A stretch of 64,000 nt of DNA, taken from IMG/VR virus record IMGVR_UViG_3300032285_003360, positions 37,770-101,769 of that record. One strand, given 5' to 3'. The notes below the pieces were generated by a model. It did not search any database. It saw only the letters and a list, made by a program, of their open reading frames with translations, and had not been told where the DNA came from. Position numbers and translations under genes: made by a program. The first letter of the stretch is position 1. The number at the start of each line of letters is the position of its first letter. The DNA is from a virus. Positions 20,366 through 45,021 of the stretch are shown here, piece after piece.

Positions 20366-20698
20366 TTATAAAATGTGTTTAAGAATAATTGTTAAAGATA
20401 TTACAATCCATAACGTATTGAAAACGATTAAAGTAGGTAAAGATTTCTTCATACTTGCCCATATCAATAATGATGATGTGCATAAGGTTAAAAAATGTAA
20501 CCACCATATTTCTTTACCAAATACTAAACCAGGAACAATGATTGCAGCTTTAGCCATCCAAGCAGCAAATTCAATTGTGTTGTAGTTTGTCCAATATTCT
20601 TTATCGGTATACATTAAAATTTTATTCCATATCTTTTGGAATCCAATAAAGTAGAACAAAACAAAAATGAAACAAAAATAAACTAATATATTAATCAC
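20366..20698 (-). CDS. small 4-TM membrane protein
   Basis: hydrophobic 110-aa ORF overlapping the halogenase stop. Confidence 0.65.
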   Translation of the reverse strand: MINILVYFCFIFVLFYFIGFQKIWNKILMYTDKEYWTNYNTIEFAAWMAKAAIIVPGLVFGKEIWWLHFLTLCTSSLLIWASMKKSLPTLIVFNTLWIVISLTIILKHIL

Positions 20699-22211
20699 GG
20701 TTGTAAAAATTTTTTAAATAATCATATATGTTAGGGAACAATTCACAAAGTGAATCAGATTCTCTTTTAATCAATTCAATGCGATGTTCACAAAGTTGTT
20801 TATACTTCTCGTGAATTTTCCATTGACAGTTTTTATAAAAACCCATACCCCATAACCATTGGAACCAGTTAACTGCTCCGAAGATTCTGCCTCTAAACAT
20901 GTGTGCAGGTGGTTTATGTTCTAACACTTTAAACTTTTGAATTATCGTATCAGGTAAAAATGTTTTTTCATGAACGTCTCTCCAAAATTGTGTATCTCTT
21001 CTTTGACATAAATAGTAATGCGCAATAATAAAATCACGAATGTCAATCATCATATCGATGTTATCTCTGTTGATTGCATCAATAACTGGTTGACCATATT
21101 TTAATCCACTCTTTTCTAATTCAGTAACAAGTGTAGCCATAATACCTTGGAATGTTGAAATACCAGTTGATTCCATTGGTTCAGCAAATCCACTACTTAA
21201 TCCACACGCAACCACATTCTTAACAGCAACTCTTTCACGTGTTCCAATTCTCATTTTAATTTTCATTACCTCACCATTATATCCATCATGGAACTCTCTA
21301 AATTCTTTTTCAGCATCTTCATCACTGATATGGTTTGATGAATAAACGTAGCCACTTCCAATTCTACTATAGATTGGTGTCTTCCATAACCAACCGCTAT
21401 TCATCGTATATAAACTCGAATAAGGTGTTAATTCTTTTCTCTTATCTTTATATGGAATAGGTGCAACAACTGCTGTGTCGCAAAATAATGAATCTTTGAA
21501 TGATATGAATGGTTCACCCATTACCGCTTCAATTAATGCCGCTCTAAATCCTGAACAATCAATATAGATATCTGCACTATATTTTGATCTATCCATCATT
21601 TTTAATTCCTTAACAAAACCAAACGCATCTAACTTAACTTCTTTTAAATCAGCTTCAACAATCTTAACACCATTTGGTATTGCTACTTTATCTCTCAATA
21701 CGTCAGCAAATTTTCTTGCATCAAAGTTGTAACTATAAAAACTTTCTAACTTAGATAACTTTGGTGAATAAGAAATGTCTTCTTCAAAGTTTGGACAAAT
21801 ATTCATATCAGCCATCTTCGCTGTTAAATGAATGTCATTAATCTTTTTATGGTCGCCTGCGTATTCAGACACCAAGTATTCATGTAAGTTTAAATCATCT
21901 GTAATAAAGTGTCTACTTTCATTCTCAACAAGAACCATGTGTTCACCATCTTCAGACCAATTCATAAACTTACCACCATACTTGTATACCGCATCACATT
22001 CATTCATCCATTCACTTTCTTTTAAACCAAGGAACGACATAAAAGATTGTAAGCTCGCAGTTGAGCTCTCACCAACACCAATGGTTGGGATAAGTTTACT
22101 ATGTATCAAGGTAATGTCTACTTTACCTTTGAACATTTTTGACAATAATGATGCAGTCATCATACCAGCAGTTCCACCGCCTAAGATGACAATTTTTTTA
22201 ACGTCTAACAT
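20691..22211 (-). CDS. flavin-dependent (tryptophan-halogenase/PrnA-like) halogenase
   Basis: GGGTAG, IGVGES, A.YK.G (catalytic Lys position), DCSGF, GWLWKTP (WxWxIP variant), R.GSGYVYS, GF.EPMESTG. Confidence 0.9.
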   Translation of the reverse strand: MLDVKKIVILGGGTAGMMTASLLSKMFKGKVDITLIHSKLIPTIGVGESSTASLQSFMSFLGLKESEWMNECDAVYKYGGKFMNWSEDGEHMVLVENESRHFITDDLNLHEYLVSEYAGDHKKINDIHLTAKMADMNICPNFEEDISYSPKLSKLESFYSYNFDARKFADVLRDKVAIPNGVKIVEADLKEVKLDAFGFVKELKMMDRSKYSADIYIDCSGFRAALIEAVMGEPFISFKDSLFCDTAVVAPIPYKDKRKELTPYSSLYTMNSGWLWKTPIYSRIGSGYVYSSNHISDEDAEKEFREFHDGYNGEVMKIKMRIGTRERVAVKNVVACGLSSGFAEPMESTGISTFQGIMATLVTELEKSGLKYGQPVIDAINRDNIDMMIDIRDFIIAHYYLCQRRDTQFWRDVHEKTFLPDTIIQKFKVLEHKPPAHMFRGRIFGAVNWFQWLWGMGFYKNCQWKIHEKYKQLCEHRIELIKRESDSLCELFPNIYDYLKNFYNRD

Positions 22212-26709: not shown

Positions 26710-29700
26710 TTATATGTCTAATTTACTCTTTAATTCAGATATAATCAAGTTCTGCTCGTTTATTTCTTGTTTCAATTCTTTGATTGCTTCAATGAATACT
26801 GCACTCAATCTACCATAAGAAACACTATCAACTTCACCGTCTTTATTTTTTAAAACAACTTCAGGAATGATTTCATTCATCTCTTCAGCAATAACACCTA
26901 TTTCTTTTAAATCATCTTCTTTTCTTACGTATGTTACACCTCGCATCTGAAGAACTTTATCCAAACCATATTTAACTATTTCAATATCTTTCTTATATCG
27001 TAATGATGAGTTTTCTGTGATAACACCTGAAACAACTAAGTTACCATCTTGGTCTAATGACATTTTAGCAGTGCTCCAGTTTGTGCTTCCATTTTTTGAT
27101 GTGTGGAAATACATTACGTGGTTTTCAGTTGCAGTTGCGGTTCCTCTCCAGTGTCCCGCATATAATCTTAAATCGTTACCATAAGTTCTAACCATACCAT
27201 CATATGTTCCTTGAACACCTAATTCTATCGATGGGTAATTACCACTACCATATACTGTTAATCCTACAGTTCCTGCAGAACCGCCACCGCTTGCTGCTGC
27301 AGTTAATGTTAAGGTCGAGAATGTTACACCATTAGTTGTATTCAAGTTTTGGTTAGCAGAATAACCGGCACCTTGCATTGCATATGATGTGTAGTTAGAT
27401 GAATCTAACACAGTTCTCCATGATGTCCATGTTCCTGAGTTTTTACCTCTAACAGCTAATTGACCTGTTCTGAAATCACCAAATATTTCATGATACCAAG
27501 ATGTGCTATAACCTGCAACATATAAACCACCATCTGTTTGTCCAAACAAAGGAACGTTAGCATTTACATAACCAATCGCATCTAATGTTGGTGGTGAACT
27601 TGCGTCCATAGCAGTTGATGAATAAGCCGCTGTAAAGTTTGATATTGAACCTGCACTTGTTGCGGATGTTGCGGTAGCGGCATTACCACTAATGCTAATA
27701 CCCCAAGTTCCCGATGCGCCACCACCTGTTAATGTTGGTGAATATGAGTTATAGTTACCTGCGTGTAAAACTACGTTGGTTAACCATGTCATAGTAGAAC
27801 CATTATATAATTTTAAACCTTCAGTGTAAACACCATTACCGTCTTTACTACCGATGTCAATGTATCTATTTGCGGTTGCACTATCATATCTAACTTTAAT
27901 TACTGGACCATTTGCGGGACCATCTAAAATTGTATATATTGTTTGGTTAGCATAACCATTTAATTGTGCAGCGTAACCATCTGTATTAACACCTGATAAA
28001 TTTAATGTTGCACTTGCTCTACCTAATGAAATAGATGTTGAACCTAAATAAAAAGATGAGTTTGCTAAGTAACTATTACTAATGGCACTACCATTCCACG
28101 TTCCACTTATAATTGTTCCAACTGTTAAATTACCATTAGACGCCAATGACATTCTATCATAGAATGTACCACCATCATTAAATGTCCAATATAATGTGCT
28201 TGAGTTGTTTGATGCACTACCGTTAGCGTATCTTAAATCAAACATTGCATTATTCGTTCCACCATTAGGATTGATTCTAAAACTCAACGCAGTATAAGCA
28301 TTAGATGTGGTTGCGTTGTTAACTATCGATAAGAATCTATTCCCATCACCCATATCACTATTAGCGGTAAAACCACTACTAACTGTTAATGAAACGGTTG
28401 TTCCTGATGTGGATCTACTCGCACCGCCACCTTGTGTAAATTTACCCGTTACAGATGTTGCACCACTAACTGATAATGTGCTACCATCATATGTTAAACC
28501 GCTGTTACCTTGTATTAAACCTGCAGTTCCTGTTGCTGTAATTACGTAATTCGCGGTGTTATTATTAATTGTTGCGGCACCAGATGTTCCTGATGAACCA
28601 TTAGAACCAGAAGAACCACTTGTTCCCGAAGAGCCTGAGCTTCCTGATGTTCCTGAACTTCCCGATGAACCTGATGAACCAGAAGTTCCTGAACTTCCCG
28701 ATGAACCTGATGAACCAGAAGTTCCTGAACTTCCCGATGAACCTGATGAACCCGATGTTCCGGAGCTACCACTAGTACCAGATGAGCCTGAACTACCCGA
28801 ACTACCTGACGTTCCTGAGCTTCCTGAAGAACCTGATGAACCCGAAGTTCCCGATGACCCGCTTGAACCAGAGCTACCGCTTGTTCCTGATGAACCGCTT
28901 GTCCCACTTGAGCCCGAACTACCCGATGAACCACTTGTACCTGAGGTTCCTGAACTACCACTAGTTCCCGATGAACCCGATGACCCACTTGTTCCAGAAC
29001 TACCACTTGAGCCCGAACTACCCGATGAACCACTTGTACCGGATGTTCCTGAGCTACCACTAGTTCCTGAAGAACCTGATGAACCCGATGACCCACTTGT
29101 TCCAGAACTACCACTTGAACCTGAAGAACCCGAAGTTCCTGAAGTTCCCGATGAGCCACTTGAACCTGATGTTCCTGAGCTACCTGAAGAGCCTGATGAA
29201 CCACTTGTACCAGAAGTTCCTGAAGAACCTGAGCTACCACTAGTTCCCGAAGAACCACTTGAACCACTACTTCCTGAACTACCAGATGTTCCACTTGTTC
29301 CTGAACTACCGCTTGTTCCGGTTGAACCTGAGCTACCGCTTGAGCCTGACGTTCCACTTGTTCCTGAACTACCTGATGATCCACTTGTTCCACTCGTTCC
29401 TGAAGAACCACTAGAACCCGAACTACCTGAAGTGCCACTTGTGCCAGAAGAACCACTTGTTCCGGTGCTTCCGCTTGAACCGGATGTTCCTGAACTACCA
29501 GATGAACCTGAAGAACCCGAAGTTCCACTTGTTCCTGAAGAACCCGAACTTCCTGATGTTCCACTAGTTCCTGATGAACCACTTGTTCCACTTGTACCAG
29601 ATGTTCCGTTTACGATAGGTAATGTTAAAATGTTACCATTTGAATCAAAACCTAATGTACCAATAGTTGTACCAGTAAATTTAGTTGCTGAATTATAATT

Positions 29701-32487
29701 CTGTAATGATAATTGACCTGTTTGTAAATCAATTCCTAAATGTTGCGCATCACTATTATTATTGTTACCTCTTAAAACTCTAAACTTATTTTGATAATTA
29801 TCAAGCATAGCACCTGATGTGTAACCACTAATTCCTGTTCCTTGTAATATTAATTGACCACCCTCACCGTTACCACCTCCAGTTGGAGGTCCGATAATTA
29901 ATGTGTTCTCAGTTGAACCTGTTAGACCATTTATTGATAAACTTCCTGTTACATATGCATTATTTGTTATTTTTAATGAACCTGTAACTTCAGTATTTGT
30001 TAAATGTCTTATGGTTGTTCCATCATCAACGGTATTTGAATCATTTAAATGGAATCCACTAACCATTTTTGGGATTCTATTTGTTGTTAAAGGTGTTTCA
30101 TTACCAAGATTGTTTGCTGTCTCAGGACCCGTAATTAAAATTGATGATGTAATAGGTGAACCTGATTGAAATTGGTGCACGAAAATCCATTCATTATTAA
30201 TAGAATCAAATAACAATGAGCCTGAAACTTGGGGTATAGAACCTGAATCAATGATTTCAATACCACCATATCTTAATATAGGTGCATTCGCATTTAATGT
30301 TAAAATATTATCACCAATTGTTAATTGTGATGATGTGATGTATTGAATTGAAGACGAACCTGCAACTATAAAGTTTTGTGAAACATATAATGAACCAGTT
30401 ACAATTGTATTTCCCGTAATAGTTAATGCGCCACCGCTATAAACTAAATTAGCTGATGCTGTTGCGGCATTTGTTGTCCCATCTGAAAGTAATATACGAC
30501 CGCTCGCTGCTGAATTAATTGTTGAGAATCCTGTTCCACTCGTTCCTGCTGTTCCTGAGCTACCTGAACTACCAGATGTTCCACTAGTTCCTGATGAACC
30601 GCTCGAACCGCTACTACCTGATGTTCCACTCGTTCCTGAACTACCACTTGTTCCACTACTACCCGAAGAACCTGAGCTTCCGGATGAACCACTTGTTCCG
30701 GATGTTCCTGAAGAACCAGAGCTACCTGATGTTCCTGAGCTTCCTGAAGAACCACTAGAACCTGAGCTACCGCTTGTTCCCGCTGTTCCACTTGTCCCTG
30801 ATGAACCACTTGAACCAGAACTTCCTGATGTCCCTGACGAACCACTGCTACCTGAGCTACCACTTGTTCCAGATGTTCCTGAACTTCCACTTGTTCCACT
30901 ACTACCTGAAGACCCACTAGAACCTGATGTTCCCGCAGTTCCACTTGTACCAGAAGAACCCGAGCTTCCGCTTGTTCCAGATGAACCTGATGATCCACTT
31001 GAACCTGACGTGCCACTCGTTCCTGAACTACCCGATGTTCCACTTGTTCCTGATGAACCTGAGCTTCCTGAAGTTCCCGATGTGCCACTTGTTCCTGATG
31101 AACCTGAGCTTCCTGAAGTTCCGCTTGTACCAGACGAACCTGAAGTTCCCGAACTTCCTGAAGAACCGCTTGTACCAGATGTTCCTGAAGAACCACTACT
31201 ACCTGAACTTCCTGATGAACCTGAACTACCTGATGTTCCGCTTGTACCAGAGCTACCACTTGTTCCACTTGTACCAGACGTTCCTGAAGTGCCCGATGTT
31301 CCTGATGAACCTGAACTACCACTTGTTCCACTTGAACCCGAACTTCCAGATGTTCCTGAAGTTCCCGATGAACCTGAACTTCCACTCGTGCCTGATGTTC
31401 CTGATGACCCTGAACTACCTGATGTTCCGCTTGTACCAGAGCTACCACTTGTTCCAGACGTTCCTGAGGTTCCGCTTGAACCTGAAGAACCACTACTACC
31501 TGATGTGCCACTTGTTCCTGAAGAACCTGAACTACCTGATGTTCCACTCGTTCCAGAACTACCGCTTGTGCCTGAAGTTCCCGATGAACCCGAGCTACCT
31601 GATGTACCACTGGTTCCACTTGAACCAGAGCTACCACTTGTTCCACTTGTGCCAGATGAACCACTAGAACCTGAAGAACCTGAGCTACCACTTGTGCCGG
31701 AAGTTCCTGAACTACCACTTGAACCAGATGTTCCTGCGGTTCCGGACGTTCCGCTTGTAGCGGCATTATATGATGTTCCATTGATAACAACATCACCTGT
31801 TACATATAATGAACCTGTAACGTATGTGTCATCATTTATTCTTAAACCGACGCCGTCATAAACTTGTGCGTTTGCTGCGCCGTCAGAAATCTTATTTAAT
31901 TGTAAACCTGTAACTCCACTTGCAGGTATTCCATATAAACCTGCTCCACTACCTGTAAATGAACCTGATATTTGTGCCGCAAGAAATGGTTGAGATATTC
32001 CACCAAATCTTAAATAACTATTTTCCGGGTCTCTTCTAAAAACAATAGCAGTTGCACCCGTTCCTATTTGAAATTCGTTTGCGATAATTTTTTTCAAATT
32101 ACCGTCAATATCTAAAACCTCTATATCACCATCAATGGTTCTGATTATTTTAGTTGCACCAAAATGAATTGCTGAACCTGTTTCTAAAAATAAATCATTC
32201 CATTTAAATTCTGTGGAACCTAAATTATAATCACCATCTAAAGCAGGTATTAATGAACCGCTGAATGTTTGGTCATCCGCAAATACGTTACTTCCTGTTG
32301 TTGCAAATGATTCACGGTCTCTTCCACCTAATAATTTTGAATTTTGGGCTAATGAAGCGGAAATTGCATTTGAGGTAGTTCCGCTGATGGTGGCGTTAAT
32401 AACACCATCAACCGTTAAATCACCCGCAATATGACCATTTCCTTGGACTTCTAACGAACCCGATATACTGGCATCAAATATTTTCAT
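26710..32487 (-). CDS. long tail fibre with Gly-Ser/Thr-Ser triplet repeats and C-terminal peptidase S74 intramolecular chaperone
   Basis: two G-[ST]-S blocks; fibre motifs; SSLRYKKDI...GVIAEE.....PE.V......V.Y..L....IEAIKEL C-terminus. Confidence 0.9.
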   Translation of the reverse strand: MKIFDASISGSLEVQGNGHIAGDLTVDGVINATISGTTSNAISASLAQNSKLLGGRDRESFATTGSNVFADDQTFSGSLIPALDGDYNLGSTEFKWNDLFLETGSAIHFGATKIIRTIDGDIEVLDIDGNLKKIIANEFQIGTGATAIVFRRDPENSYLRFGGISQPFLAAQISGSFTGSGAGLYGIPASGVTGLQLNKISDGAANAQVYDGVGLRINDDTYVTGSLYVTGDVVINGTSYNAATSGTSGTAGTSGSSGSSGTSGTSGSSGSSGSSGSSGTSGTSGSSGSSGTSGTSGSSGSSGTSGTSGSSGTSGTSGSSGSSGTSGTSGSSGSSGSSGTSGTSGTSGSSGTSGTSGSSGSSGTSGTSGSSGSSGTSGTSGSSGSSGTSGSSGSSGTSGTSGTSGTSGTSGSSGTSGTSGSSGSSGSSGSSGSSGTSGTSGSSGSSGTSGSSGTSGTSGSSGSSGTSGTSGTSGSSGSSGTSGTSGSSGTSGTSGSSGSSGSSGTSGSSGSSGTSGTAGTSGSSGSSGSSGTSGSSGTSGTSGSSGSSGSSGTSGSSGSSGSSGTSGTAGTSGSSGSSGSSGSSGTSGSSGSSGTSGTSGSSGSSGSSGSSGTSGSSGTSGTSGSSGSSGSSGTSGTSGSSGSSGTAGTSGTGFSTINSAASGRILLSDGTTNAATASANLVYSGGALTITGNTIVTGSLYVSQNFIVAGSSSIQYITSSQLTIGDNILTLNANAPILRYGGIEIIDSGSIPQVSGSLLFDSINNEWIFVHQFQSGSPITSSILITGPETANNLGNETPLTTNRIPKMVSGFHLNDSNTVDDGTTIRHLTNTEVTGSLKITNNAYVTGSLSINGLTGSTENTLIIGPPTGGGNGEGGQLILQGTGISGYTSGAMLDNYQNKFRVLRGNNNNSDAQHLGIDLQTGQLSLQNYNSATKFTGTTIGTLGFDSNGNILTLPIVNGTSGTSGTSGSSGTSGTSGSSGSSGTSGTSGSSGSSGSSGTSGSSGSTGTSGSSGTSGTSGSSGSSGSSGTSGTSGSSGSSGTSGTSGSSGSSGSTGTSGSSGTSGTSGSSGSSGSSGSSGTSGSSGSSGTSGTSGSSGSSGSSGTSGSSGSSGTSGTSGSSGSSGSSGTSGSSGSSGSSGTSGSSGTSGTSGSSGSSGSSGSSGTSGSSGSSGTSGSSGTSGTSGSSGSSGSSGTSGSSGTSGSSGSSGSSGTSGSSGSSGSSGTSGSSGSSGSSGTSGSSGTSGSSGSSGSSGTSGSSGSSGSSGTSGSSGSSGSSGTSGSSGSSGTSGSSGSNGSSGTSGAATINNNTANYVITATGTAGLIQGNSGLTYDGSTLSVSGATSVTGKFTQGGGASRSTSGTTVSLTVSSGFTANSDMGDGNRFLSIVNNATTSNAYTALSFRINPNGGTNNAMFDLRYANGSASNNSSTLYWTFNDGGTFYDRMSLASNGNLTVGTIISGTWNGSAISNSYLANSSFYLGSTSISLGRASATLNLSGVNTDGYAAQLNGYANQTIYTILDGPANGPVIKVRYDSATANRYIDIGSKDGNGVYTEGLKLYNGSTMTWLTNVVLHAGNYNSYSPTLTGGGASGTWGISISGNAATATSATSAGSISNFTAAYSSTAMDASSPPTLDAIGYVNANVPLFGQTDGGLYVAGYSTSWYHEIFGDFRTGQLAVRGKNSGTWTSWRTVLDSSNYTSYAMQGAGYSANQNLNTTNGVTFSTLTLTAAASGGGSAGTVGLTVYGSGNYPSIELGVQGTYDGMVRTYGNDLRLYAGHWRGTATATENHVMYFHTSKNGSTNWSTAKMSLDQDGNLVVSGVITENSSLRYKKDIEIVKYGLDKVLQMRGVTYVRKEDDLKEIGVIAEEMNEIIPEVVLKNKDGEVDSVSYGRLSAVFIEAIKELKQEINEQNLIISELKSKLDI
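28579..29607 (-). repeat. G-[ST]-S triplet repeat block 2 (about 114 triplets)
   Basis: 9-nt periodic repeat encoding GSS/GTS with varied synonymous codons. Confidence 0.95.
30532..31755 (-). repeat. G-[ST]-S triplet repeat block 1 (about 136 triplets)
   Basis: 9-nt periodic repeat encoding GSS/GTS/GTA. Confidence 0.95.
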
Positions 32488-32542
32488 CTAAATAATATTA
32501 TACTTAGATAAATACTTGATTATTCGTATCTAAAACGGAAAA

Positions 32543-35275
32543 TTAGAACAATAACTTATCTATTTCGTTTATCACGTCTTGAGAGGTGATATTTTTAGAA
32601 CATTCAAACTGTCTGTCTGTATTTTTATGGTCAGGACACCAATTCCAATCACCCGCATCAAAATCGTGTCTATTCCAACAACTGTTACAAACATTTTTGT
32701 TGATAATTCTATTAACACCTATTATTGGTTCGGTATAATCATCACTAAATCCTGATATCATTATTGTAGGTGTTTCACATCCCCAAGCAACCCAACTTAA
32801 ACCACTACTAATCCCAATAAACAATTCAGATTCTTGCAATACTTTCATGATATCAATTAATGAACCATTTGGTTGTTTTGTTGCCCCTTTTGGATAGAAA
32901 TTACCCATATACCCATCCTCTTCTTTTGATAAGATTCTTACTTCATATCCTTTTGAAATTAGATAATCCGTAATATCTTGCCAACCTGTTGGGTTGTTCC
33001 AATACTTAGCTTGTGCTGTTGAATGTAAACCAATTGTCACCAACTTCTTTTTTTGAACATTGAACTTTTGTAACTTAGGTTTAAGTTCTTCATACTCTAA
33101 ACCAAGTATATCGGAACTATATTTTGTTAACGGCTCAGTTTTAGGGTCCGTTCTATGATATTCATTATTAACAACTCTTACACCATCTTCTGTTTTATAG
33201 AACATCCCTAATCTATATAAAGCGTAAAGACTGTTAACCGAAGAACCTGGTTCAACAAATTCAATTTCTTTGTATTGTTTTTTGAACAACTCATTTTGGA
33301 ATGTTGAACAAATCACTTTACAATTTCTTTGTTTTCTAAATTTCTCAACATATGGGATGAAAGCTAACGTATCCCCTAAAGACTTACTTTCGAAACAAAT
33401 CAAAACTCGTTGTTTTTCTAAATTCATTTCGTATTGAAATCTATAATTGTTGTCAATACCTCTAACATCAATTAACCAATCCACATAATATTTTATTGAA
33501 CACTTAGCCCAATGGTTTGATTTTAAATCAAGTTCATATTCCACTTTGTTGTTCGCTTTGTTTATAAATTGAACATGGTAATTAGAATCAAAGTCATTTA
33601 ATATCTCAACAAATGGCCCATCAACAAAATTGATATTAACCTTTGTTTTTGATTGGTCCTTATTCTCGTAAACAAGTTTATTTTTTCTTCTAAATTCATT
33701 TACATCTTCAGATAACAATTCATTATAGACCTCAACACCTTTGTGGTAAATTGAGACATTTTGATTTTGTTCGTAGTAACCAATTTTTTCTAAATGGTAT
33801 TGTCCTTTTTGAATTGTATAGAATTTTCGGTGATTTCCGTAATTAACCTCAACCAAGTAATCTTTGTCTGCGGGTTTATCGGTAAAACCAGATATGAAAT
33901 GAATATATAATTGATTTGAATTATCAACCGCCAAATATATTTGGAATCTACCACCGTTTCTATCTAAATGGTCTCTATTCCAAACAGCGTGAACATTAAG
34001 CTCGTTATCGTTAGCAATGTATTTGCTTGTGAAGATATTGTTCGTCACATCTTTAAGATACTTTAAAAACACTCTTTCCAATTGCCAACCATGTGGTCTG
34101 TTTGTGAAATATTCTTTTTTTGAATTTACCTTGCTGATTAACTCAAGAGCAACATCGGTTTTAACACTAAAGATAAATGTTGCACAAAATTCAGCGAAGT
34201 CTTTATTAACAGATGATTTTTCAGCGTATTCATAAATAACAGCATCGTGGCGATGACTATATTCCAAAAATGCTTGTTTATATTGCATTGGGTCTGGTAA
34301 GTTATCATATTCCAAAAAGTGAATATATTTTTTACCAAGATACTTCGCATAGTTAAACGCATTTCTCATTGTTTCCCAAATAGCGTAGTCATGATGGAAA
34401 CCCATTTTATTAATAACTTTAGCGCCACCTAAAGATGTCCATCTATCGCTCGCTACGCCATACTCTTCAAAATCTTTTTCAAGTAATATATCGTTGTTAC
34501 CATCATAGATATAATGGTCAACTAACTTTTGAATTTCGGGTTTAACGGGATAGTGCCCACATAATAAGATTGGAATATTAAAATTTCTAAGTCTTTCAAT
34601 TAAACCAAGTAAAGTGTTTTCTTTTTCGGGTGTGTCCAACCAACAATCAACAATAAAGATATCATCTTCAAATTCATTGTTTGACGATTTTTTAGGGAAG
34701 TAATGTTTCAAGAATGTGTCAACAGAAATAACATTCATAAGTTCGTTTCTATTATCACAATAGAAATTATACGTCAATTCCTCGCCGTTGTATTTGAATG
34801 GTGTGTTATTTCCTTTTCTAATAATACCCAAACCATAATCAGTATCAACGGTATTAATTTCTAAATCCGTTCTTTCGATTCTAAATTTAGCAATAGCTTT
34901 CCACACATCACCAGTCCATTCACCATCACACTCTTCTTGGCGTTGCATTACTTCACTAAATGGTAAACAGTCGTGACAAACAATTACACCATTATCAGAT
35001 AAATGATTCAATGAATTCTCAATGTCTCTTATTACTTGATAATCATGATGTAAACCATCAATAAAAATAATGTCATATTTGAAATCCTTATCTAATTGTT
35101 CAAAGAATTCATCTGATGTGATTGGGTAGTTACAATTACCTGCGGGGTCAACACCATCCTTATGCTCAACGTTGATAATGTTTAAATTATCATTAGGGTT
35201 TCTAACACCAATCTCTAAGTATGATTTAAAATTATTGTATTCAATAAATTTATTTATCGCGTCGTATCTTCTCAT
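32543..35275 (-). CDS. fusion: class I methyltransferase + GT-A-like domain + Aah/TibC-like (autotransporter) protein O-heptosyltransferase
   Basis: N-term YLEIGV/IFIDGLH/HDC; C-term SLGDTLAFIPY, K.WNNP.GW, FIG.SSGLSW, and the four-Cys iron finger CNSCWN...WCP.H....RQFEC. Confidence 0.85.
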   Translation of the reverse strand: MRRYDAINKFIEYNNFKSYLEIGVRNPNDNLNIINVEHKDGVDPAGNCNYPITSDEFFEQLDKDFKYDIIFIDGLHHDYQVIRDIENSLNHLSDNGVIVCHDCLPFSEVMQRQEECDGEWTGDVWKAIAKFRIERTDLEINTVDTDYGLGIIRKGNNTPFKYNGEELTYNFYCDNRNELMNVISVDTFLKHYFPKKSSNNEFEDDIFIVDCWLDTPEKENTLLGLIERLRNFNIPILLCGHYPVKPEIQKLVDHYIYDGNNDILLEKDFEEYGVASDRWTSLGGAKVINKMGFHHDYAIWETMRNAFNYAKYLGKKYIHFLEYDNLPDPMQYKQAFLEYSHRHDAVIYEYAEKSSVNKDFAEFCATFIFSVKTDVALELISKVNSKKEYFTNRPHGWQLERVFLKYLKDVTNNIFTSKYIANDNELNVHAVWNRDHLDRNGGRFQIYLAVDNSNQLYIHFISGFTDKPADKDYLVEVNYGNHRKFYTIQKGQYHLEKIGYYEQNQNVSIYHKGVEVYNELLSEDVNEFRRKNKLVYENKDQSKTKVNINFVDGPFVEILNDFDSNYHVQFINKANNKVEYELDLKSNHWAKCSIKYYVDWLIDVRGIDNNYRFQYEMNLEKQRVLICFESKSLGDTLAFIPYVEKFRKQRNCKVICSTFQNELFKKQYKEIEFVEPGSSVNSLYALYRLGMFYKTEDGVRVVNNEYHRTDPKTEPLTKYSSDILGLEYEELKPKLQKFNVQKKKLVTIGLHSTAQAKYWNNPTGWQDITDYLISKGYEVRILSKEEDGYMGNFYPKGATKQPNGSLIDIMKVLQESELFIGISSGLSWVAWGCETPTIMISGFSDDYTEPIIGVNRIINKNVCNSCWNRHDFDAGDWNWCPDHKNTDRQFECSKNITSQDVINEIDKLLF

Positions 35276-37986
35276 TTTGTAAAATATATCATTTGTAATT
35301 CGTCATTTCCACCCATAAACAATATGTAGGAAACAAAACCTAATCTTTGTAATCTGTTTATTAAATTTTCTCTTAATTCAACATTATGACCTAAATGTCC
35401 GTGATGATATTCCATTGCGATGTTTCTTACCTTTAAAAGATTATCATCCGATATTCCCGCAAAGGCATGTTGCTCTGCACCTTCGATATCCACTTTAAGG
35501 AAATCTATCTTATCAATCAAACCTGTTTCAAACAAATAATCTAACGTGTATGTTCTAACAGGATATTTTACACCATCACCCGCACCAAGTAAAGTGGAAC
35601 CACCTAAATGGTCGGTTTGGTATAATGTAAATTCACCAATTGTATCGGCCATTGCTGCGTTGAACAATATTGAACGTGGGTCAGCGTTTAATGATAATAA
35701 TTTGAAATATCTTCTATCAGGTTCAAACGAGATAACCTTACTTGCACCTTGACTGTAGACCCATCTATTGAAAATACCAACATTACCACCTAAGTCGACA
35801 ACAATATCACCTTCATTGATTACTCTTTCTCTATTCTTGTAATAATCCAATAGATTGAATATCTCATGGTAGATTGCTCTAAACCAACCGAACTTAGTTG
35901 CAACTTCCATTGTTCCGCCTTCGTAACCTTTGATGTCACCTAAGTTTTCTAATTTGTAAATGTCAGTATAAAAATATTCTGATTGATAGAATGAGTTGTC
36001 TCTTTTCATTTTAATAAACTCAATCATCTTATCTGATATCTCGGCGTTTTTATTACCGTGAAAATATATGATATCGGATTTATCTTTTGGAATGTATTGA
36101 TAACCAAAAATTCTATTGAAATTCTGTGGGCCATCTTCATTCCAAAACTTTAAAAATTGATGCATTGTTTTATCGATGAAACCTTCATCACCATCATAAG
36201 AAGATGTGTCAAAGTTTGATAATGGTAAGTGATTAGTAAAACCATGGTTCCATCTAATCGCATTATCTATACCTTCATCATTCCATAAGAAATATCGTTT
36301 ATAGTCTTCAGGACTACCTTGCATCATTGTGTCATAATATCCCAATATACCATCAAAAAAACCTCTTGAACCTTGATTGTAAATGTAGAAACAGATGTGC
36401 ATGTATGGTTGTTGTTTTTCAACTCCCCATCTTTTAGCTAATTCTTCATTAAATAATTGTGAACCACCTTCATATGTTCCAAAGAATTCTTCTTGAACGT
36501 GAATATCCGATAATGGGTAACGACCAACTTGTTTGAAATATTTTGTAACAGTATCAATATTGTAATTAACGACTACATCTCCGTCAACCCAAATGTAATA
36601 ATCAAAATCTTCGTTTAATGATTCTAAACAAGCCCATTGTTTCCAATACCATTTATCGTGTTCAGAAATCTTTGGTGGGTTAATAGTTCTTTTAATAACA
36701 TTAGGATAATCAAATGGAACTTCACAATCAACACCGTAAACAATAACTTTTTGACTACTGAATTCCAATAAAGATTGAACCATTTTTTCAATCACAGGCA
36801 TGTATTGTAAGTTACCGGTAGTAACAAATGCATATGATGGAAATATCTTATTCAACTTCTTACTTGCAAGCTCGGCCACATGTTCCCAATTAAAATCTTC
36901 ATGTATTTGTTTAGCCTCGGCTCTTGATTTGATGAGTATTGCTGTGTGATAATCATAAGCTTGACGCATTTGTGTTTTCAAATCATCCCAATTAGGTTCA
37001 CAATAATCACCTGGCCAATCTTTATGTTCAACATTCGCGGGTCTTAATTCTGATATACCTACAGGGATACCTTTACCACTAGCAAATTCAAGTTGTCCAC
37101 CCCAATTAGAATATATTGATGGTGTTCCACAAGCCATAGCTTCAATCAATGGTAAGTTCCATCCTTCGCTACGAGCACAAGAAACAAATACATCACCTTC
37201 TTGTAGATATTTGACGTATTCATCTCTTGTTGGGAATTTAATGAAATTAATTTTGGTATCATCAATTCCGTGGAATTCAATTCGTTCTTTTGTTGACTTT
37301 AAACCGTCATTTGGATATGGATTTTCAACTGATGCGATTAATTCCACATCATCAATATCTTTAAATGTTTCGGAAAAGGCTCTTAATATTTCTGTGGTTC
37401 CCTTTCTATAATCCCATCTACCAAAATGTAAAAATCTAAACTTATCTTTTTTTGAGAATTTCTCAATAGGTTTAAACGTCTCAACGTCAACACCTTCAGG
37501 AATGATTGTTATTTTGTGTTCAGGATAACCCTGCGCAACTAAACAATCATATTGCCATTGGGTTGGCACCCACATTTCATCAAATGTTAATAATCTATTA
37601 AAGAAATGTTCAGGGAATAATGTTGATTCCCAAACACAATAAGCAATTTTATAACCATCGTAATTGTCATAATAATAGAAGTTATCCATCTCCATTAAAA
37701 CAATGTGAACGTCAGGTTTAAAGCTACCATCATATCCGTAAATCGGATAGTCAGTTCTACTACCATCAGCATTGAATAGAGTTTGTTGAATCAACATATC
37801 CTTCATCTCATCGGTAATGTAAGGTTCGCCGTCATGTGGTGTTGGGTTATAACCTTTCCAACTATCACCAATAGTGAAGTTTCTTACTTTAACAGTGTGT
37901 AATTTGTTTAATGCACAAAAAAATGATTTACTATGGTTTGCGTAACCGGTAGTTCCAATAAAGGGTGCGTGAGCTAAGATTTTCAT
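35272..37986 (-). CDS. fusion: GT4 glycosyltransferase + GT-A-like domain + FkbM methyltransferase
   Basis: TGYANH, GRWDYRKG, SEGWNLPLIEAMACG; WVDGD; VVDLGGNVG.F, FEP, LKVDIEGAE. Confidence 0.85.
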   Translation of the reverse strand: MKILAHAPFIGTTGYANHSKSFFCALNKLHTVKVRNFTIGDSWKGYNPTPHDGEPYITDEMKDMLIQQTLFNADGSRTDYPIYGYDGSFKPDVHIVLMEMDNFYYYDNYDGYKIAYCVWESTLFPEHFFNRLLTFDEMWVPTQWQYDCLVAQGYPEHKITIIPEGVDVETFKPIEKFSKKDKFRFLHFGRWDYRKGTTEILRAFSETFKDIDDVELIASVENPYPNDGLKSTKERIEFHGIDDTKINFIKFPTRDEYVKYLQEGDVFVSCARSEGWNLPLIEAMACGTPSIYSNWGGQLEFASGKGIPVGISELRPANVEHKDWPGDYCEPNWDDLKTQMRQAYDYHTAILIKSRAEAKQIHEDFNWEHVAELASKKLNKIFPSYAFVTTGNLQYMPVIEKMVQSLLEFSSQKVIVYGVDCEVPFDYPNVIKRTINPPKISEHDKWYWKQWACLESLNEDFDYYIWVDGDVVVNYNIDTVTKYFKQVGRYPLSDIHVQEEFFGTYEGGSQLFNEELAKRWGVEKQQPYMHICFYIYNQGSRGFFDGILGYYDTMMQGSPEDYKRYFLWNDEGIDNAIRWNHGFTNHLPLSNFDTSSYDGDEGFIDKTMHQFLKFWNEDGPQNFNRIFGYQYIPKDKSDIIYFHGNKNAEISDKMIEFIKMKRDNSFYQSEYFYTDIYKLENLGDIKGYEGGTMEVATKFGWFRAIYHEIFNLLDYYKNRERVINEGDIVVDLGGNVGIFNRWVYSQGASKVISFEPDRRYFKLLSLNADPRSILFNAAMADTIGEFTLYQTDHLGGSTLLGAGDGVKYPVRTYTLDYLFETGLIDKIDFLKVDIEGAEQHAFAGISDDNLLKVRNIAMEYHHGHLGHNVELRENLINRLQRLGFVSYILFMGGNDELQMIYFTK

Positions 37987-37990
37987 TGAT

Positions 37991-38021
37991 ATAATATAAC
38001 AAAAATCAATGAATTTTCAAA
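37991..38021 (-). promoter_or_regulatory. Bacteroidota-type promoter TTTG-N19-TATATTAT (leaderless)
   Basis: caaa 38018-38021 and ataatata 37991-37998; ATG at 37986. Confidence 0.6.
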
Positions 38022-39691: not shown

Positions 39692-40455
39692 ATAATCGTT
39701 TTTTTAGTTTGTGGTTCTAACCCTAACATACGAATAAATTCTTCATAAATCAAATGTTGTCTATAAGTTGTGTAATGATCCAAATCCCTTGCTTCTAATG
39801 AACCATCCTTACTCCAATTAATATCATCGTTTCTTAGAAGATAATAATTACACCCTATTTCCGATGCCAAATGTTTTATTGCGGAAATAAATGCAGTATC
39901 GATAAAAGATTGTTGGTCGTTGTTAACTAACGAATCTTCAATCAATGTTCCATATTGAACTTTCCATTCATCTTGATATTCATTGACTTTACAAATTGTT
40001 GGTTTACCGTTAATTATGAATTCGTATCTATAGTAATTTGGGAGGTAATGGAATATGTTTTTAATCTTTAACTCTTTATAATAACCAAGTAATAAACGAT
40101 AATGTGACATCACTCCAGTCCCGCCAATGGATAAGTTCCAAAACTTACCTCCGATTTGGTTGTTTACTTTATATGACCACACGTTTTCAAGATGGTGACC
40201 GACACCAAATGTATATGAACAACCTAAAAACACATTACCCTCATCAACCAAATTAAAATCATCAGGTGACCTGAAACCTTCATTGTTTAATGTGTATTTT
40301 ATTGGGTTTTCTAAATAATATTTTAAACTTTCGTTGTTGGGATATCTCTTTAAATTGGATATGAAATTCTCCTCTTCGTTTTGTGTAATCCAATTGTATG
40401 TTGTGTTAGGTGAATATTTCTCCCAACCGCACCTGTCTTTATAAATGGGAATCAT
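39688..40455 (-). CDS. SGNH/GDSL-like protein
   Basis: N..GFR, FLGCSYTFG.G, NLSIGG, ARDLDH. Confidence 0.65.
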   Translation of the reverse strand: MIPIYKDRCGWEKYSPNTTYNWITQNEEENFISNLKRYPNNESLKYYLENPIKYTLNNEGFRSPDDFNLVDEGNVFLGCSYTFGVGHHLENVWSYKVNNQIGGKFWNLSIGGTGVMSHYRLLLGYYKELKIKNIFHYLPNYYRYEFIINGKPTICKVNEYQDEWKVQYGTLIEDSLVNNDQQSFIDTAFISAIKHLASEIGCNYYLLRNDDINWSKDGSLEARDLDHYTTYRQHLIYEEFIRMLGLEPQTKKTII

Positions 40456-41000
40456 ATAAAACTTTTCTTTGTGATGGGTTTTACATTCTCATTGACAATT
40501 GCGATAATCATTGATTTCCTTTCCCCAGATGTTATTATTTCAACTTCATGTGGTGTTTCAGGTGTTATAGCTAAAAAACTACCAATTTCTTTACTCATTG
40601 GTATTGGTTGGTCGTTAACATAAGATAAGAACTGGCCACCTTCGTAATCTGTTTGATTTGATAATTGAACAATACACACACAAAATCTGTTATGTTCAAA
40701 TGGGTCGGAATCAATATGTTTACTGATAAAATTACCATCATTATATTTGTATATTTCAAATGGTAAAACATCGACATCTATTTTATACCCAAGTTCATTA
40801 AATGATTCGTTAATTTTCTTAAACAATAAATCATCTTTTGTTATTGAAGCATTTGTTACAAAACTATTTCGTTTTTTTAAATTATACCCAACTTCATTGT
40901 TATTTCCCGCTTTAAAATAAGACTGCACGAATTGTCCACCCAATCCTCTTAGATATTGACATTCGGATTCGTCAAATAGTTTTTTCTCAAATAAAATCAT
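40452..41000 (-). CDS. 2OG-Fe(II) oxygenase (PKHD/prolyl-hydroxylase-like)
   Basis: Y..G.F...HID, QLS...YEGG, HEV..I.SG.R.S. Confidence 0.85.
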   Translation of the reverse strand: MILFEKKLFDESECQYLRGLGGQFVQSYFKAGNNNEVGYNLKKRNSFVTNASITKDDLLFKKINESFNELGYKIDVDVLPFEIYKYNDGNFISKHIDSDPFEHNRFCVCIVQLSNQTDYEGGQFLSYVNDQPIPMSKEIGSFLAITPETPHEVEIITSGERKSMIIAIVNENVKPITKKSFI

Positions 41001-43795: not shown

Positions 43796-44548
43796 TTAAA
43801 ATAACCTTTTATCTCCAATAAATGGAGGTTTTACTGAAAACTTTATTTTACCAACATAATGTCTATAATAATCATTTTCTTCACCAAGTATTTTAGATAA
43901 CGGATAAACCGTGGAGTCCATTTCTTTAGCTATCATCGTTAGAATATATTGACCCGCAACCAATGTTTGGTCTTTGTTTAATAATTGGCCATTGGTTTTT
44001 ACAAAACTGTTAAACCTTTTCCAGTAATCAACGTAAACATCTTTTAGCTTTTTATTAGTAATTCTTAATAAACCACAATTGAAGATTTTATCCTCACCAT
44101 TGAATATTTTTTCCGCCTTTTCGTTGAATATTGGAAGAGTGTCGTTGATATTCAATTTTAGTAGTTCTTTTATTTGGTCACCATATGTGTGTTTCCAAAA
44201 TTCAGCCTCATAAGCGTCAAATGTTATATCAACATCCATTTCTGGTATTCTTGAATTTAAAATGACGTCTCCATCGATTAAATAAAAATCGTCATTTCTA
44301 TCCTCTAAAACTTTAATTTTAAAACTATCGAATAATGGTGAACCCTCATAATCCTCCACAGTGATGATTTCATCAACATAGGGTTTAAAGATATGTGAAT
44401 GCGTGCTATTTGTGTAAATTATGGTATGATAACCTAATTTTTTTGCGGTGGTAATTGATAATTTATAAAATTCGGTTAAAACCTCCGAATGCCATTTCTT
44501 CATACCATCCATATTCACATTAAAGTTATATGTCCATATTAATTTCAT
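43796..44548 (-). CDS. GT-A-like (DxD) nucleotide-sugar transferase, paralog B (start re-assigned to 44548)
   Basis: highly similar to 43056-43790 (M.LIWTYNFNV, SPLFDSFKIKVLE, LIDGDVIL). Confidence 0.55.
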   Translation of the reverse strand: MKLIWTYNFNVNMDGMKKWHSEVLTEFYKLSITTAKKLGYHTIIYTNSTHSHIFKPYVDEIITVEDYEGSPLFDSFKIKVLEDRNDDFYLIDGDVILNSRIPEMDVDITFDAYEAEFWKHTYGDQIKELLKLNINDTLPIFNEKAEKIFNGEDKIFNCGLLRITNKKLKDVYVDYWKRFNSFVKTNGQLLNKDQTLVAGQYILTMIAKEMDSTVYPLSKILGEENDYYRHYVGKIKFSVKPPFIGDKRLF

Positions 44549-45021
44549 ATAAACTTTTGTGTTGGTGGTTTTGTCTCTAATATGTCGTTTAGGAAATCTT
44601 GTTTTGATGAACCAACCAAAGCCCATCTTAAACCTTTGTGTTCGGTGATTCGATGCATCTCATTCTCATTAAAATAAACTAACATCCCTTTTACCGGTTT
44701 AACAACTATGCCGTTTGTGAATTCCAATAACCCACCTTCAAATTCTTCGTTTAAGTATATGATAAAATTATATGGGTTAAAATGATTATGAAAAACAGGG
44801 TTTTGATTTATACTATCATCATATTTTTGCAACCTCAACGCCTCAAACTTTTTTGTTTTAAAAAAATTGTTTTTTGCGGTTATGTTATCCTTTTTTAAAT
44901 TTAAATCATTAAAATAAAAATATGCACCAATATTGGAATACTTTATGGTGTCATCTTCCCACATTGATAGAATTTGATTAATATCATCATCATTAAGAAA
45001 TTTCTCAACTATTAAAATCAT
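44545..45021 (-). CDS. 2OG-Fe(II) oxygenase
   Basis: H.H, IYLNEEFEGG.L.F, KP.KG...F, HR, R.ALVG. Confidence 0.8.
   Translation of the reverse strand: MILIVEKFLNDDDINQILSMWEDDTIKYSNIGAYFYFNDLNLKKDNITAKNNFFKTKKFEALRLQKYDDSINQNPVFHNHFNPYNFIIYLNEEFEGGLLEFTNGIVVKPVKGMLVYFNENEMHRITEHKGLRWALVGSSKQDFLNDILETKPPTQKFI

What the first reader, a model, noticed from the sequence alone, without database searches (positions are those of the whole stretch)
26710..35275. Aah/TibC-like protein O-glycosyltransferase directly upstream of a Ser-rich tail fibre
Seen: the C-terminal domain of 32543-35275 has the SLGD motif and the CxxC...C...C iron finger (CNSCWN, WCP, FEC). The next gene encodes a fibre with about 250 G-[ST]-S triplets (roughly 500 Ser/Thr). 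Established: Aah/TibC enzymes hyper-glycosylate Ser residues of repetitive autotransporter passengers using ADP-heptose. Inference: the phage glycosylates its own fibre, and the fused methyltransferase and GT-A domains and the upstream GT4-GT-FkbM fusion extend and cap the glycan. This would give a phage-encoded virion glycan coat built with bacterial adhesin chemistry. The donor sugar is unknown because no ADP-heptose pathway genes are visible in the window.
Basis: partly seen in the sequence, partly recalled or inferred. Interest (0 to 1): 0.85.

Follow-up and report, generated by a model that had tools for sequence, protein, structure and literature searches.

The report
Phage TibC-like enzyme beside serine-collagen fibre
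A large uncultured phage encodes a true relative of TibC, the E. coli enzyme that sugar-coats adhesins, directly upstream of a 1925-residue proline-free collagen-like tail fibre; this pairing recurs across many phages and some bacteria, so the phage probably sugar-coats its own fibre, though no sugar has been observed.

Summary
Residues 543-907 of the 910-aa protein (32543-35275, minus strand) score 272 bits against TIGR04414 (Aah/TibC; cut-off 200). They keep the catalytic Asp, three of four donor-binding residues and all four iron-finger Cys. The TibC adenine contact Arg286 is Ile. The next gene is a 1925-aa fibre with 250 collagen triplets, 242 of them G-[ST]-S, and an S74 chaperone end.

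- Of 78 viral contigs picked blind for GSS/GTS collagen repeats, 31 carry a TIGR04414 gene. Only 2 of 44 Gly-Pro-X collagen control contigs do (p = 1e-5).
- The two genes usually lie within 10 kb of each other.
- In methanotroph chromosomes a TibC-like gene sits beside a secreted (G-T-S)n protein.
- The TibC-like domain is repeatedly fused or adjacent to GT4, GT-A-fold and methyltransferase domains.
- One phage clade carries HldE-like heptose kinase and nucleotidyltransferase genes next to it.

This contig (31% complete) has no heptose-pathway genes, so the donor sugar remains inferred. I found no paper describing this. The scan has noted the same pairing on many other genomes (191 notes). I class it as a new variant of a known kind; it is untested experimentally.

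The parts
35272..37986 (-). 904-aa three-domain enzyme (GT4, GT-A-like, FkbM methyltransferase); its stop overlaps the next gene's start by 4 bases
   Evidence: ORF list and translation. Pfam Glycos_transf_1 54.1 bits and Methyltransf_21 56.7 bits. TIGR01444 fkbM_fam 73.5 bits. phrog_2170 glycosyltransferase E 3.5e-41.
36844..37986 (-). GT4 (GT-B fold) glycosyltransferase domain, residues 1-381
   Evidence: PF00534, PF13692 and PF20706; phrog_2170 over residues 1-381.
35842..36834 (-). Middle domain, residues 385-715; tentative GT8/GT24-like GT-A fold with an invariant D-x-D
   Evidence: No Pfam hit. The AF2 model is weak (pLDDT 56). Foldseek top hits are glycogenin and UGGT at E about 1e-4. 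D84 and D86 are invariant in alignment A2.
35332..35838 (-). FkbM-family methyltransferase domain, residues 717-885
   Evidence: PF05050, TIGR01444 and phrog_8156.
32543..35275 (-). 910-aa three-domain enzyme (methyltransferase, GT-A-like, TibC/Aah-type O-glycosyltransferase)
34766..35275 (-). Class I SAM methyltransferase domain (Methyltransf_24), residues 1-170
   Evidence: PF13578 38.6 bits; phrog_27561. Equivalent domains in relatives also hit CmcI/TylF-type sugar O-methyltransferases.
33641..34708 (-). Middle domain, residues 190-545: GT-A fold followed by a beta-sandwich
   Evidence: No Pfam hit. AF2 model pLDDT 81.5. Foldseek top hits are GT-A enzymes: COLGALT1 at E 3.5e-6, mannosylglycerate synthase, LH3 and alpha-1,3-GalT, with TM about 0.35.
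32546..33649 (-). TibC/Aah-family (BAHT, GT9-related) protein O-glycosyltransferase domain with iron finger, residues 543-910
   Evidence: TIGR04414 272 bits against a cut-off of 200. PDB 4rap at E 3.6e-50. D635, T753, K757, W828, C863, C866, C880 and C892 align to TibC D110, T226, K230, W305, C339, C342, C358 and C370.
26710..32487 (-). 1925-aa collagen-like tail fibre, the proposed acceptor; it starts 55 bases after the enzyme gene
   Evidence: Collagen 328.9 bits. Tail-fibre PHROGs such as phrog_5073 at E 1e-94. It is the only ORF with G-[ST]-S tracts in the 101.8-kb contig.
30538..31752 (-). Collagen-like array 1, residues 246-650, 135 triplets
28573..29607 (-). Collagen-like array 2, residues 961-1305, 115 triplets
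26851..27009 (-). Peptidase_S74 intramolecular chaperone domain at the fibre C-terminus, residues 1827-1879
   Evidence: PF13884 42.7 bits against a cut-off of 22; phrog_33119 long tail fibre distal subunit.

Best explanation
The three co-oriented genes form a virion-fibre O-glycosylation cassette.

Inferred mechanism: in the infected cell's cytoplasm the TibC-like domain transfers a sugar from a nucleotide sugar onto Ser hydroxyls of the G-[ST]-S triplets. The donor is most likely an NDP-heptose. The Y-position Ser, present in 98% of triplets, is the most likely acceptor site. The other domains are one GT4, two GT-A-fold domains and two methyltransferases. They would then extend the first sugar into a short oligosaccharide and O-methylate it. 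The result would be a glycan-coated, proline-free collagen-like tail fibre.

Shown here: the domain identities, the conserved catalytic, donor-phosphate and iron-finger residues, and the genomic linkage of the enzyme with G-[ST]-S repeat proteins.

Inferred: that the fibre is the acceptor, the identity of the sugar, the order of the steps, and any benefit such as triple-helix stability, protease or antibody shielding, or receptor binding.
For: 1. Enzyme identity.
- TIGR04414 scores 272 bits, above the 200-bit cut-off, over the full model length.
- The match to TibC structures has E 3.6e-50.
- Residues shown by mutagenesis to be needed in TibC (PMC4358343) are conserved here and invariant in 82 phage homologues: D110, K230, W305 and the four Cys. 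T226 is kept in 81 of 82.

2. Reverse co-occurrence.
- Viral contigs were picked only for eight consecutive G-[ST]-S-type triplets.
- 31 of 78 of these carry a TIGR04414 gene, including 5 of 5 that are at least 90% complete.
- Among Gly-Pro-X collagen contigs the figures are 2 of 44, and 1 of 10 complete.
- Fisher p = 1.2e-5, odds ratio 13.9.

3. Proximity.
- About 21 of 30 co-occurring contigs have the two genes within 10 kb.
- In 6 of 8 contigs of at least 100 kb the gap is 5.5 kb or less; binomial p is about 2e-5.

4. Forward direction.
- 21 of 80 loci fetched by the TibC-like domain carry a Gly-X-Y ORF within 10 kb. In almost all of them the top triplets are GTS and GSS.
- 23 of 30 clusters of the domain at 60% identity include such a neighbour.

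5. Independent lineage. In Methylobacter and Methylomicrobium chromosomes the TibC-like gene (43-45% identity) is adjacent to a signal-peptide (G-T-S)n protein and sits among housekeeping genes.

6. Recurrent fusion or adjacency of the TibC-like domain with GT4 and sugar-type methyltransferases, in several architectures.

7. HldE-like kinase and nucleotidyltransferase genes lie immediately after the TibC-like gene in about 50 loci. In L034, the representative of the main clade among them that I examined, it follows a 2327-aa tail fibre and its chaperone.

8. Precedent. C. difficile sgtA lies immediately upstream of bclA3 and O-glycosylates Thr in its collagen GPT triplets (PMC7157674).
Against: - No glycan has been observed on any such fibre; all the evidence is genomic.
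- The TibC acceptor is a beta-helix, not a collagen helix.
- Arg286, the adenine contact whose mutation disables TibC, is Ile here and V/I/L in 78 of 82 phage homologues.
- The 101.8-kb contig has no nucleotidyltransferase, SIS or PfkB gene. Four of five complete TibC-positive phage genomes also lack an HldE-like gene, and none of five has GmhA.
- A close relative (L004, 65% identity in the domain) has the same enzyme pair next to a fibre without Gly-X-Y arrays, with Ser+Thr at 29%.
- In the stand-alone clade the GSS/GTS genes lie about 50 kb from the enzyme.
- Contigs are related to one another and share habitats, so the Fisher p-value overstates independence.
Confidence: 0.66

Rival explanations
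1. The TibC-like enzyme is active, but its acceptor is some other phage or host protein, for example another Ser/Thr-rich fibre, a capsid decoration or a host envelope protein. Under this reading, the linkage to G-[ST]-S fibres reflects shared residence in the tail-fibre module of one broad group of aquatic phages.
For: L004 keeps the enzyme pair beside a non-collagen Ser/Thr-rich fibre. In L034, the representative of the stand-alone clade that I examined, the enzyme sits beside a 2327-aa non-collagen fibre, and in the three near-complete genomes of that clade that carry GSS/GTS arrays these lie about 50 kb away. Accessory genes often cluster near tail-fibre genes (general knowledge).
Against: The enrichment is specific to repeat composition, GSS/GTS against Gly-Pro-X. 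The pairing recurs in non-phage bacterial chromosomes as a two-gene unit. The fibre is the only ORF with such tracts in this contig.
Confidence: 0.17
2. The acceptor is the fibre, but the first sugar is not a heptose. The phage clade has changed donor specificity to a hexose, or to a sugar carried on a different nucleotide.
For: Arg286 is replaced by V/I/L throughout the phage clade, and position 300, the TibC stereoselectivity determinant, is Gly or Ser. This contig has no heptose genes and most complete genomes have none. The neighbouring kinase and nucleotidyltransferase of relatives score below the HldE equivalog cut-offs: 116.9 against 345, and 100.7 against 181.5.
Against: The best-scoring families for those neighbours are nevertheless rfaE domains I and II and phrog_7878 HldE. 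Trp305, which binds heptose O4 in TibC, and the phosphate ligands are invariant. The clade with HldE-like genes also lacks Arg286, so its loss does not exclude heptose.
Confidence: 0.3
3. The cassette makes or modifies a non-protein glycan, such as host lipopolysaccharide core, capsule or a lipid-linked oligosaccharide, as LPS heptosyltransferases of family GT9 do.
For: There are weak hits to the LPS heptosyltransferases RfaQ and WaaC-type families at E 1e-6 to 1e-3 and to Pfam Glyco_transf_9.
Against: The score for the protein-specific family is far higher, 272 bits against 27 or less. The iron finger and N-terminal barrel region that distinguish TibC from WaaC are present. No membrane or lipid-carrier genes were seen in the cassette. 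The linkage to repeat proteins would be left unexplained.
Confidence: 0.05

Closest known systems
TibC-TibA and Aah-AIDA-I of E. coli (bacterial autotransporter heptosyltransferases, BAHT; TIGR04414; PDB 4RAP/4RB4; PMC4358343)
   Same: It belongs to the same sequence family over the whole protomer, with about 37% identity over the aligned region. It has the same catalytic Asp, phosphate ligands, heptose-O4 Trp and four-Cys iron finger. The logic is the same: an enzyme gene sits next to a highly repetitive Ser-rich acceptor gene, and modification is cytoplasmic.
   Different: The acceptor here is a Gly-X-Y collagen-like phage fibre, not a beta-helical autotransporter passenger, and no autotransporter domain is present. 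The adenine-contact Arg286 is lost. The domain is fused behind a methyltransferase and a GT-A domain and is partnered with further transferases, which suggests an oligosaccharide rather than single heptoses. The setting is viral.
SgtA-BclA3 of Clostridioides difficile, and BclA of Bacillus anthracis (the latter from my own knowledge)
   Same: The glycosyltransferase gene lies immediately upstream of a collagen-like filament gene. The hydroxyl residue in the Y position of the triplets (GPT) is O-glycosylated, and the glycan is then extended (PMC7157674).
   Different: SgtA is a GT-A O-GlcNAc transferase unrelated to TibC. The triplets are Gly-Pro-Thr. It is a spore surface protein, not a virion part.
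Mycobacteriophage virion glycosylation (Freeman et al. 2023, cited in PMC12619734)
   Same: Phage-encoded glycosyltransferases O-glycosylate the phage's own structural proteins.
   Different: Those acceptors are the C-terminal ends of capsid and tail-tube subunits. The enzymes are not of the TibC family, and no collagen-like repeats or heptose genes are involved.
Viral NDP-heptose biosynthetic enzymes (Tang et al.; commentary PMC11573728)
   Same: Relatives of this phage carry HldE-like kinase and nucleotidyltransferase genes. That paper reports such enzymes in viruses and says their role there is unsolved.
   Different: Here they sit next to a protein heptosyltransferase homologue and a tail fibre, which suggests a use for them. 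This window's own contig has none.

Membership tests
BAHT / TIGR04414 (Aah/TibC O-heptosyltransferase) | Score above the curated equivalog cut-off over the full length | tested here: met
   272 bits against a cut-off of 200, model positions 9-373 of 374; 274.6 bits in the six-frame search.
BAHT / TIGR04414 | Catalytic base Asp110 in the SLGD motif | tested here: met
   D635 aligns to D110 and is invariant in 82 phage homologues.
BAHT / TIGR04414 | Donor ligands Thr226, Lys230 (beta-phosphate) and Trp305 (heptose O4) | tested here: met
   T753, K757 and W828 align to them.
BAHT / TIGR04414 | Arg286 contact to adenine N1 (ADP specificity) | tested here: not met
   Ile809 occupies this position here. 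Across 82 phage homologues it is V 65, L 10, I 3, T 2, A 1 and R 1.
BAHT / TIGR04414 | Four-Cys iron finger (Cys339, 342, 358, 370) | tested here: met
   C863, C866, C880 and C892 are invariant in 82 of 82 homologues. Iron binding itself was not tested.
BAHT / TIGR04414 | Ring-shaped dodecamer | not testable with these tools
   Not attempted. Here the domain carries 540 extra N-terminal residues.
BAHT / TIGR04414 | Transfers heptose from ADP-heptose | not testable with these tools
   The only evidence is indirect: HldE-like genes lie beside the enzyme in relatives. None is present in this contig.
BAHT / TIGR04414 | Acceptor is an autotransporter passenger encoded nearby | tested here: not met
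   There is no PF03797 match in the contig. The neighbour is a collagen-like fibre.
Collagen triple-helix repeat (PF01391) | Long uninterrupted Gly-X-Y arrays | tested here: met
   328.9 bits; 135 and 115 consecutive triplets. Trimer formation was not tested, and the arrays contain no Pro.
Phage tail fibre with S74 intramolecular chaperone | C-terminal Peptidase_S74 domain and tail-fibre family hits | tested here: met
   PF13884 42.7 bits against a cut-off of 22; 15 of the 25 PHROG families listed are annotated as tail or tail-fibre proteins.
GT-A fold glycosyltransferases (two middle domains) | Rossmann-like GT-A fold with an acidic metal-binding motif | tested here: inconclusive
   No Pfam hit. 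Fold matches have TM of only about 0.3-0.37. One model has pLDDT 81.5 and the other 56. D-x-D is invariant in the second domain.
HldE (heptose kinase and adenylyltransferase) in the phage | Presence of rfaE domain I and II homologues | tested here: not met
   None is present in this contig. In relatives the best hits are rfaE_dom_I and rfaE_dom_II, but they score below the equivalog cut-offs.

The most novel reading that the evidence does not exclude
TibC-type enzymes define a widespread, undescribed virion glycosylation system of aquatic phages. They attach heptose-based, methylated oligosaccharides to the Y-position Ser of proline-free G-[ST]-S collagen triplets. This modification is what lets such Pro-free helices fold or persist, and it is the purpose of the puzzling NDP-heptose genes found in viruses. 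The same chemistry is used by methanotrophs on secreted (G-T-S)n proteins.
Probability: 0.35. Interest if true: 0.85.

Novelty: new variant of a known kind. Interest (0 to 1): 0.72.

Why it matters
- It would assign a function to thousands of metagenomic proteins. 5098 clusters match at E <= 1e-10, and pipelines auto-name them 'autotransporter heptosyltransferase' although no autotransporter is nearby.
- It would suggest a use for virus-encoded NDP-heptose enzymes, which the literature calls unsolved (PMC11573728).
- It would extend the BAHT family from beta-helix adhesins to collagen-like acceptors.
- It would add a second, chemically different case of phage virion glycosylation beside the mycobacteriophages.
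- Glycan-coated receptor-binding fibres would bear on host recognition and on how proline-free collagen helices are stabilised.
- The test is cheap: co-expression in E. coli followed by mass spectrometry.

Tried and rejected
- Megablast of 32000-38000 against the phage collection found nothing.
I therefore could not inspect the 335-kb and 238-kb contigs that hold close homologues.
- The listing of cluster members gave no accessions.
- Pfam at E <= 1 found nothing for the two middle domains, so I used structure prediction instead.
- The T4 late-promoter motif TATAAATA is not enriched (7 found, 13.6 expected) and is absent before these genes. I make no claim about the operon beyond co-orientation, a 4-base overlap and a 55-base gap.
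- PHROG and Pfam scans of the flanking small genes were uninformative.
- I considered that the three nearby 2OG-Fe(II) oxygenases (PF13640, the prolyl-hydroxylase type) might hydroxylate the fibre. I set this aside because the arrays contain no Pro or Lys.
- I considered that the C-terminal K-L-L-F of the enzyme is the 'tag' noted by another finding. The same ending is intrinsic to stand-alone TibC-like proteins of other phages, so I do not claim it.
- I did not run complex prediction. An enzyme-substrate pair is a poor case for it.
Full report
**What is in the window**

Three co-oriented minus-strand genes fill 26710-37986.
- The first, 35272-37986 (904 aa), has an N-terminal GT4 glycosyltransferase and a C-terminal FkbM methyltransferase.
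- The second, 32543-35275 (910 aa), overlaps the first by four bases. It has an N-terminal Methyltransf_24 domain. Its residues 543-907 match TIGR04414, the Aah/TibC 'autotransporter strand-loop-strand O-heptosyltransferase', at 272 bits against a curated cut-off of 200.
- The third starts 55 bases later, at 26710-32487 (1925 aa). It is a tail fibre with many tail-fibre PHROG hits, Collagen at 328.9 bits and a C-terminal Peptidase_S74 chaperone.

The contig is an IMG/VR virus record of 101,769 bases that CheckV estimates to be 31% complete.

**Checking the observation**

The TibC structures 4rap and 4rb4 align to residues 563-908 at E 3.6e-50. I took residue roles from the TibC paper (PMC4358343) and mapped them onto this protein.
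- The catalytic base Asp110 corresponds to D635, within SLGD.
- The beta-phosphate ligands Thr226 and Lys230 correspond to T753 and K757.
- The heptose-O4 ligand Trp305 corresponds to W828.
- The iron-finger Cys339, 342, 358 and 370 correspond to C863, C866, C880 and C892.
- The adenine-N1 contact Arg286 is Ile809.
- The stereoselectivity position Pro300 is Ser, as in Aah.

In an alignment of 82 phage homologues the Asp, Lys, Trp and four Cys are invariant. The Arg286 position is V, I or L in 78.

The fibre has exactly 250 Gly-X-Y triplets in two arrays. Of these, 242 are G-[ST]-S, and together they hold 493 Ser/Thr. No other ORF in the contig has such tracts.

**The other domains**

The two unnamed middle domains have no Pfam match.
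- A model of residues 190-545 of the 910-aa protein (pLDDT 81.5) matches GT-A enzymes best: COLGALT1, mannosylglycerate synthase, LH3 and alpha-1,3-GalT. E reaches 3.5e-6 but TM is only about 0.35. A beta-sandwich follows the GT-A part.
- The model of residues 385-715 of the 904-aa protein is weak (pLDDT 56). It matches glycogenin and UGGT (GT8/GT24) and has an invariant D-x-D.

The cassette thus carries four glycosyltransferase-type domains and two methyltransferase domains.

**Relatives fetched by the enzyme**

A scan of IMG/VR found 260 contigs with a relative of the TibC-like domain, and I fetched 80 loci. The protein database holds 5098 clusters at E <= 1e-10. Many are auto-named after TIGR04414.
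- The nearest relatives (54-68% identity) keep the same two large genes, often with a small extra methyltransferase between them.
- In other clades the domain stands alone (about 380 aa) or is fused in various orders to GT4 and to FkbM, Methyltransf_24/CmcI-like or Methyltransf_23 domains. The 1226-aa protein of Microcystis phage Mel-JY01 is one such GT4 fusion, with no methyltransferase hit.
- 21 of the 80 loci have a Gly-X-Y ORF within 10 kb, and in almost all of them GTS and GSS are the commonest triplets.
- Several of these neighbours share the S74 C-terminus with the window's fibre.

**Heptose-pathway genes in relatives**

About 50 loci form one clade with conserved gene order. In L034, the representative I annotated, that order is: a 2327-aa tail fibre, a tail-fibre assembly chaperone, a GT4-methyltransferase fusion, the TibC-like gene, a 129-aa nucleotidyltransferase and then a 250-aa PfkB kinase.
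- The best family hits of the last two are rfaE domain II (100.7 bits) and rfaE domain I (116.9 bits), that is, HldE. Both are under the equivalog cut-offs. phrog_7878 also names HldE.
- The closest relative's contig has a weaker rfaE-II-like gene 25 kb away from the enzyme.
- This window's contig has none.
- No GmhA-type SIS gene was found in five larger genomes.
- Only one of five complete TibC-positive genomes has an rfaE-II-like gene.

Most of these phages must therefore draw the donor, or its precursors, from the host.

I scanned IMG/VR for eight consecutive GGN-WSN-WSN codons, blind to the enzyme.
- 80 loci had at least 30 triplets with at least half GSS or GTS.
- Of the 78 contigs that could be searched, 31 have a TIGR04414 match, 29 of them above the cut-off. 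All 5 contigs that are at least 90% complete have one.
- As a control I scanned for eight Gly-Pro-X triplets. Only 2 of 44 of those contigs have a match, and 1 of 10 complete ones. One of the two positives had also matched the Ser/Thr pattern.
- Fisher's exact test gives p = 1.2e-5 with an odds ratio of 13.9. For complete genomes alone p = 0.002.

The two genes are also close together.
- About 21 of 30 co-occurring contigs have them within 10 kb.
- In 6 of 8 contigs of at least 100 kb the gap is 5.5 kb or less, where chance gives at most 10% each.

The association is spread over diverged lineages. After clustering the domain at 60% identity, 23 of 30 clusters include a member with such a neighbour.

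Three cautions apply. Contigs share ancestry and habitat, so these p-values are upper bounds on the strength of the evidence. In the stand-alone clade the GSS/GTS genes exist but lie about 50 kb away. One close relative pairs the enzymes with a Ser/Thr-rich fibre that lacks Gly-X-Y arrays.

**An independent lineage**

A scan of bacterial genomes found 13 loci at 41-50% identity. In Methylobacter luteus, another Methylobacter, two Methylomicrobium genomes and several proteobacterial MAGs, the TibC-like gene is directly next to a 230-350-aa protein. That protein has a signal peptide and runs of G-T-S (also G-T-A and G-T-T) triplets. In M. luteus the pair lies among QueA, Mfd, MiaB and PhoH, so it is not in a prophage. 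This is the same enzyme-plus-repeat unit outside phages.

**Mechanism, with its status**

Shown: an intact TibC-family catalytic domain, and a tight, composition-specific and phylogenetically broad linkage to G-[ST]-S repeat proteins.

Inferred:
- The fibre's Ser residues are the acceptors. The Y-position Ser, fixed in 98% of triplets, is the most likely site. This parallels the Y-position Thr of the BclA3 GPT triplets glycosylated by SgtA, whose gene also lies immediately upstream of its substrate gene (PMC7157674).
- The donor is an NDP-heptose.
- The GT4, GT-A and methyltransferase domains extend and methylate the glycan.
- The modification happens in the cytoplasm before assembly, as it does for TibA.

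The loss of Arg286 across the clade, including members with HldE-like neighbours, means either that adenine is read differently or that the nucleotide differs. CDP- and UDP-heptose are known products of some heptose nucleotidyltransferases (PMC11573728).

**Comparison with the literature**

Full-text searches for TibC or heptosyltransferase together with phage, tail fibre or collagen-like found no description of this system. Two recent papers on large aquatic phages and cyanophages mention virion glycosylation only through the mycobacteriophage work. A 2024 commentary states that the role of heptose-pathway enzymes in viruses is unsolved.

**Earlier notes of this scan**

After I had reached the above, a word look-up showed 191 notes on at least 144 other genomes that describe the same enzyme-fibre pairing. 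Follow-up agents reached the same reading. These are not independent evidence. My conclusions rest on the calls cited here.

**Verdict**

I class it as a new variant of known kinds: BAHT enzymes, glycosylated collagen-like filaments and phage virion glycosylation. It has a cheap decisive experiment.

Noticed in passing
L384:6920-9122 (Methylobacter luteus IMV-B-3098); also L386, L387, L385, L389, L391, L381: This is a bacterial two-gene unit. A signal-peptide protein with (G-T-S)n, G-T-A or G-T-T runs and two repeated Cys-containing domains sits directly next to a TibC-like gene, among housekeeping genes.
   Followed up: partly
L034:11092-12223, and about 48 other loci: Split HldE-like genes (a 129-aa nucleotidyltransferase and a shortened 250-aa PfkB kinase) lie immediately after a stand-alone TibC-like gene. 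The nucleotidyltransferase ends in F-S-T-T, so it lacks the Arg of the published promiscuity motif.
   Followed up: partly
L034:2-6982: A 2327-aa tail fibre (open at the locus 5' end, so possibly longer) carries Hint/intein-type domains (about residues 1747-2049) ahead of a gp53-like C-terminus.
   Followed up: no
L034:12658-17127: A 1100-1490-aa protein is conserved in the stand-alone clade between the heptose genes and the terminase. It has an N-terminal NMNAT-like nucleotidyltransferase and a GNAT domain.
   Followed up: no
window 32546-32590 (C-terminus of the 910-aa protein): The protein ends in D-K-L-L-F, which fits the K-x-[LIF]-[ILF] tail reported for neighbouring enzymes. Stand-alone TibC-like proteins of other phages end similarly (E-K-F-L, E-K-I-L), so it may be intrinsic to the domain.
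   Followed up: partly
window 40452-41000, 44545-45021, 45018-45479: Three small 2OG-Fe(II) oxygenases of the prolyl-hydroxylase type (PF13640) lie upstream of a collagen-like fibre whose arrays contain no Pro or Lys.
   Followed up: no
window 20691-22211: An intact tryptophan-halogenase family gene (373.6 bits) lies a few genes downstream of the fibre.
   Followed up: no
L005 (two genes), and contigs G050 and G059: Some phage contigs carry two TibC-like genes, either in tandem or a few kb apart. In L005 the two are only 31% identical.
   Followed up: no
L004:11161-13347: A 729-aa fibre sits next to the same enzyme pair. It shares the N-terminus and a C-terminal-region segment with the window's fibre and ends in an S74-chaperone-like tail, but it has no Gly-X-Y arrays. 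Instead it has repeated 'TGNISGNAATVTTNANLTG'-like units.
   Followed up: no
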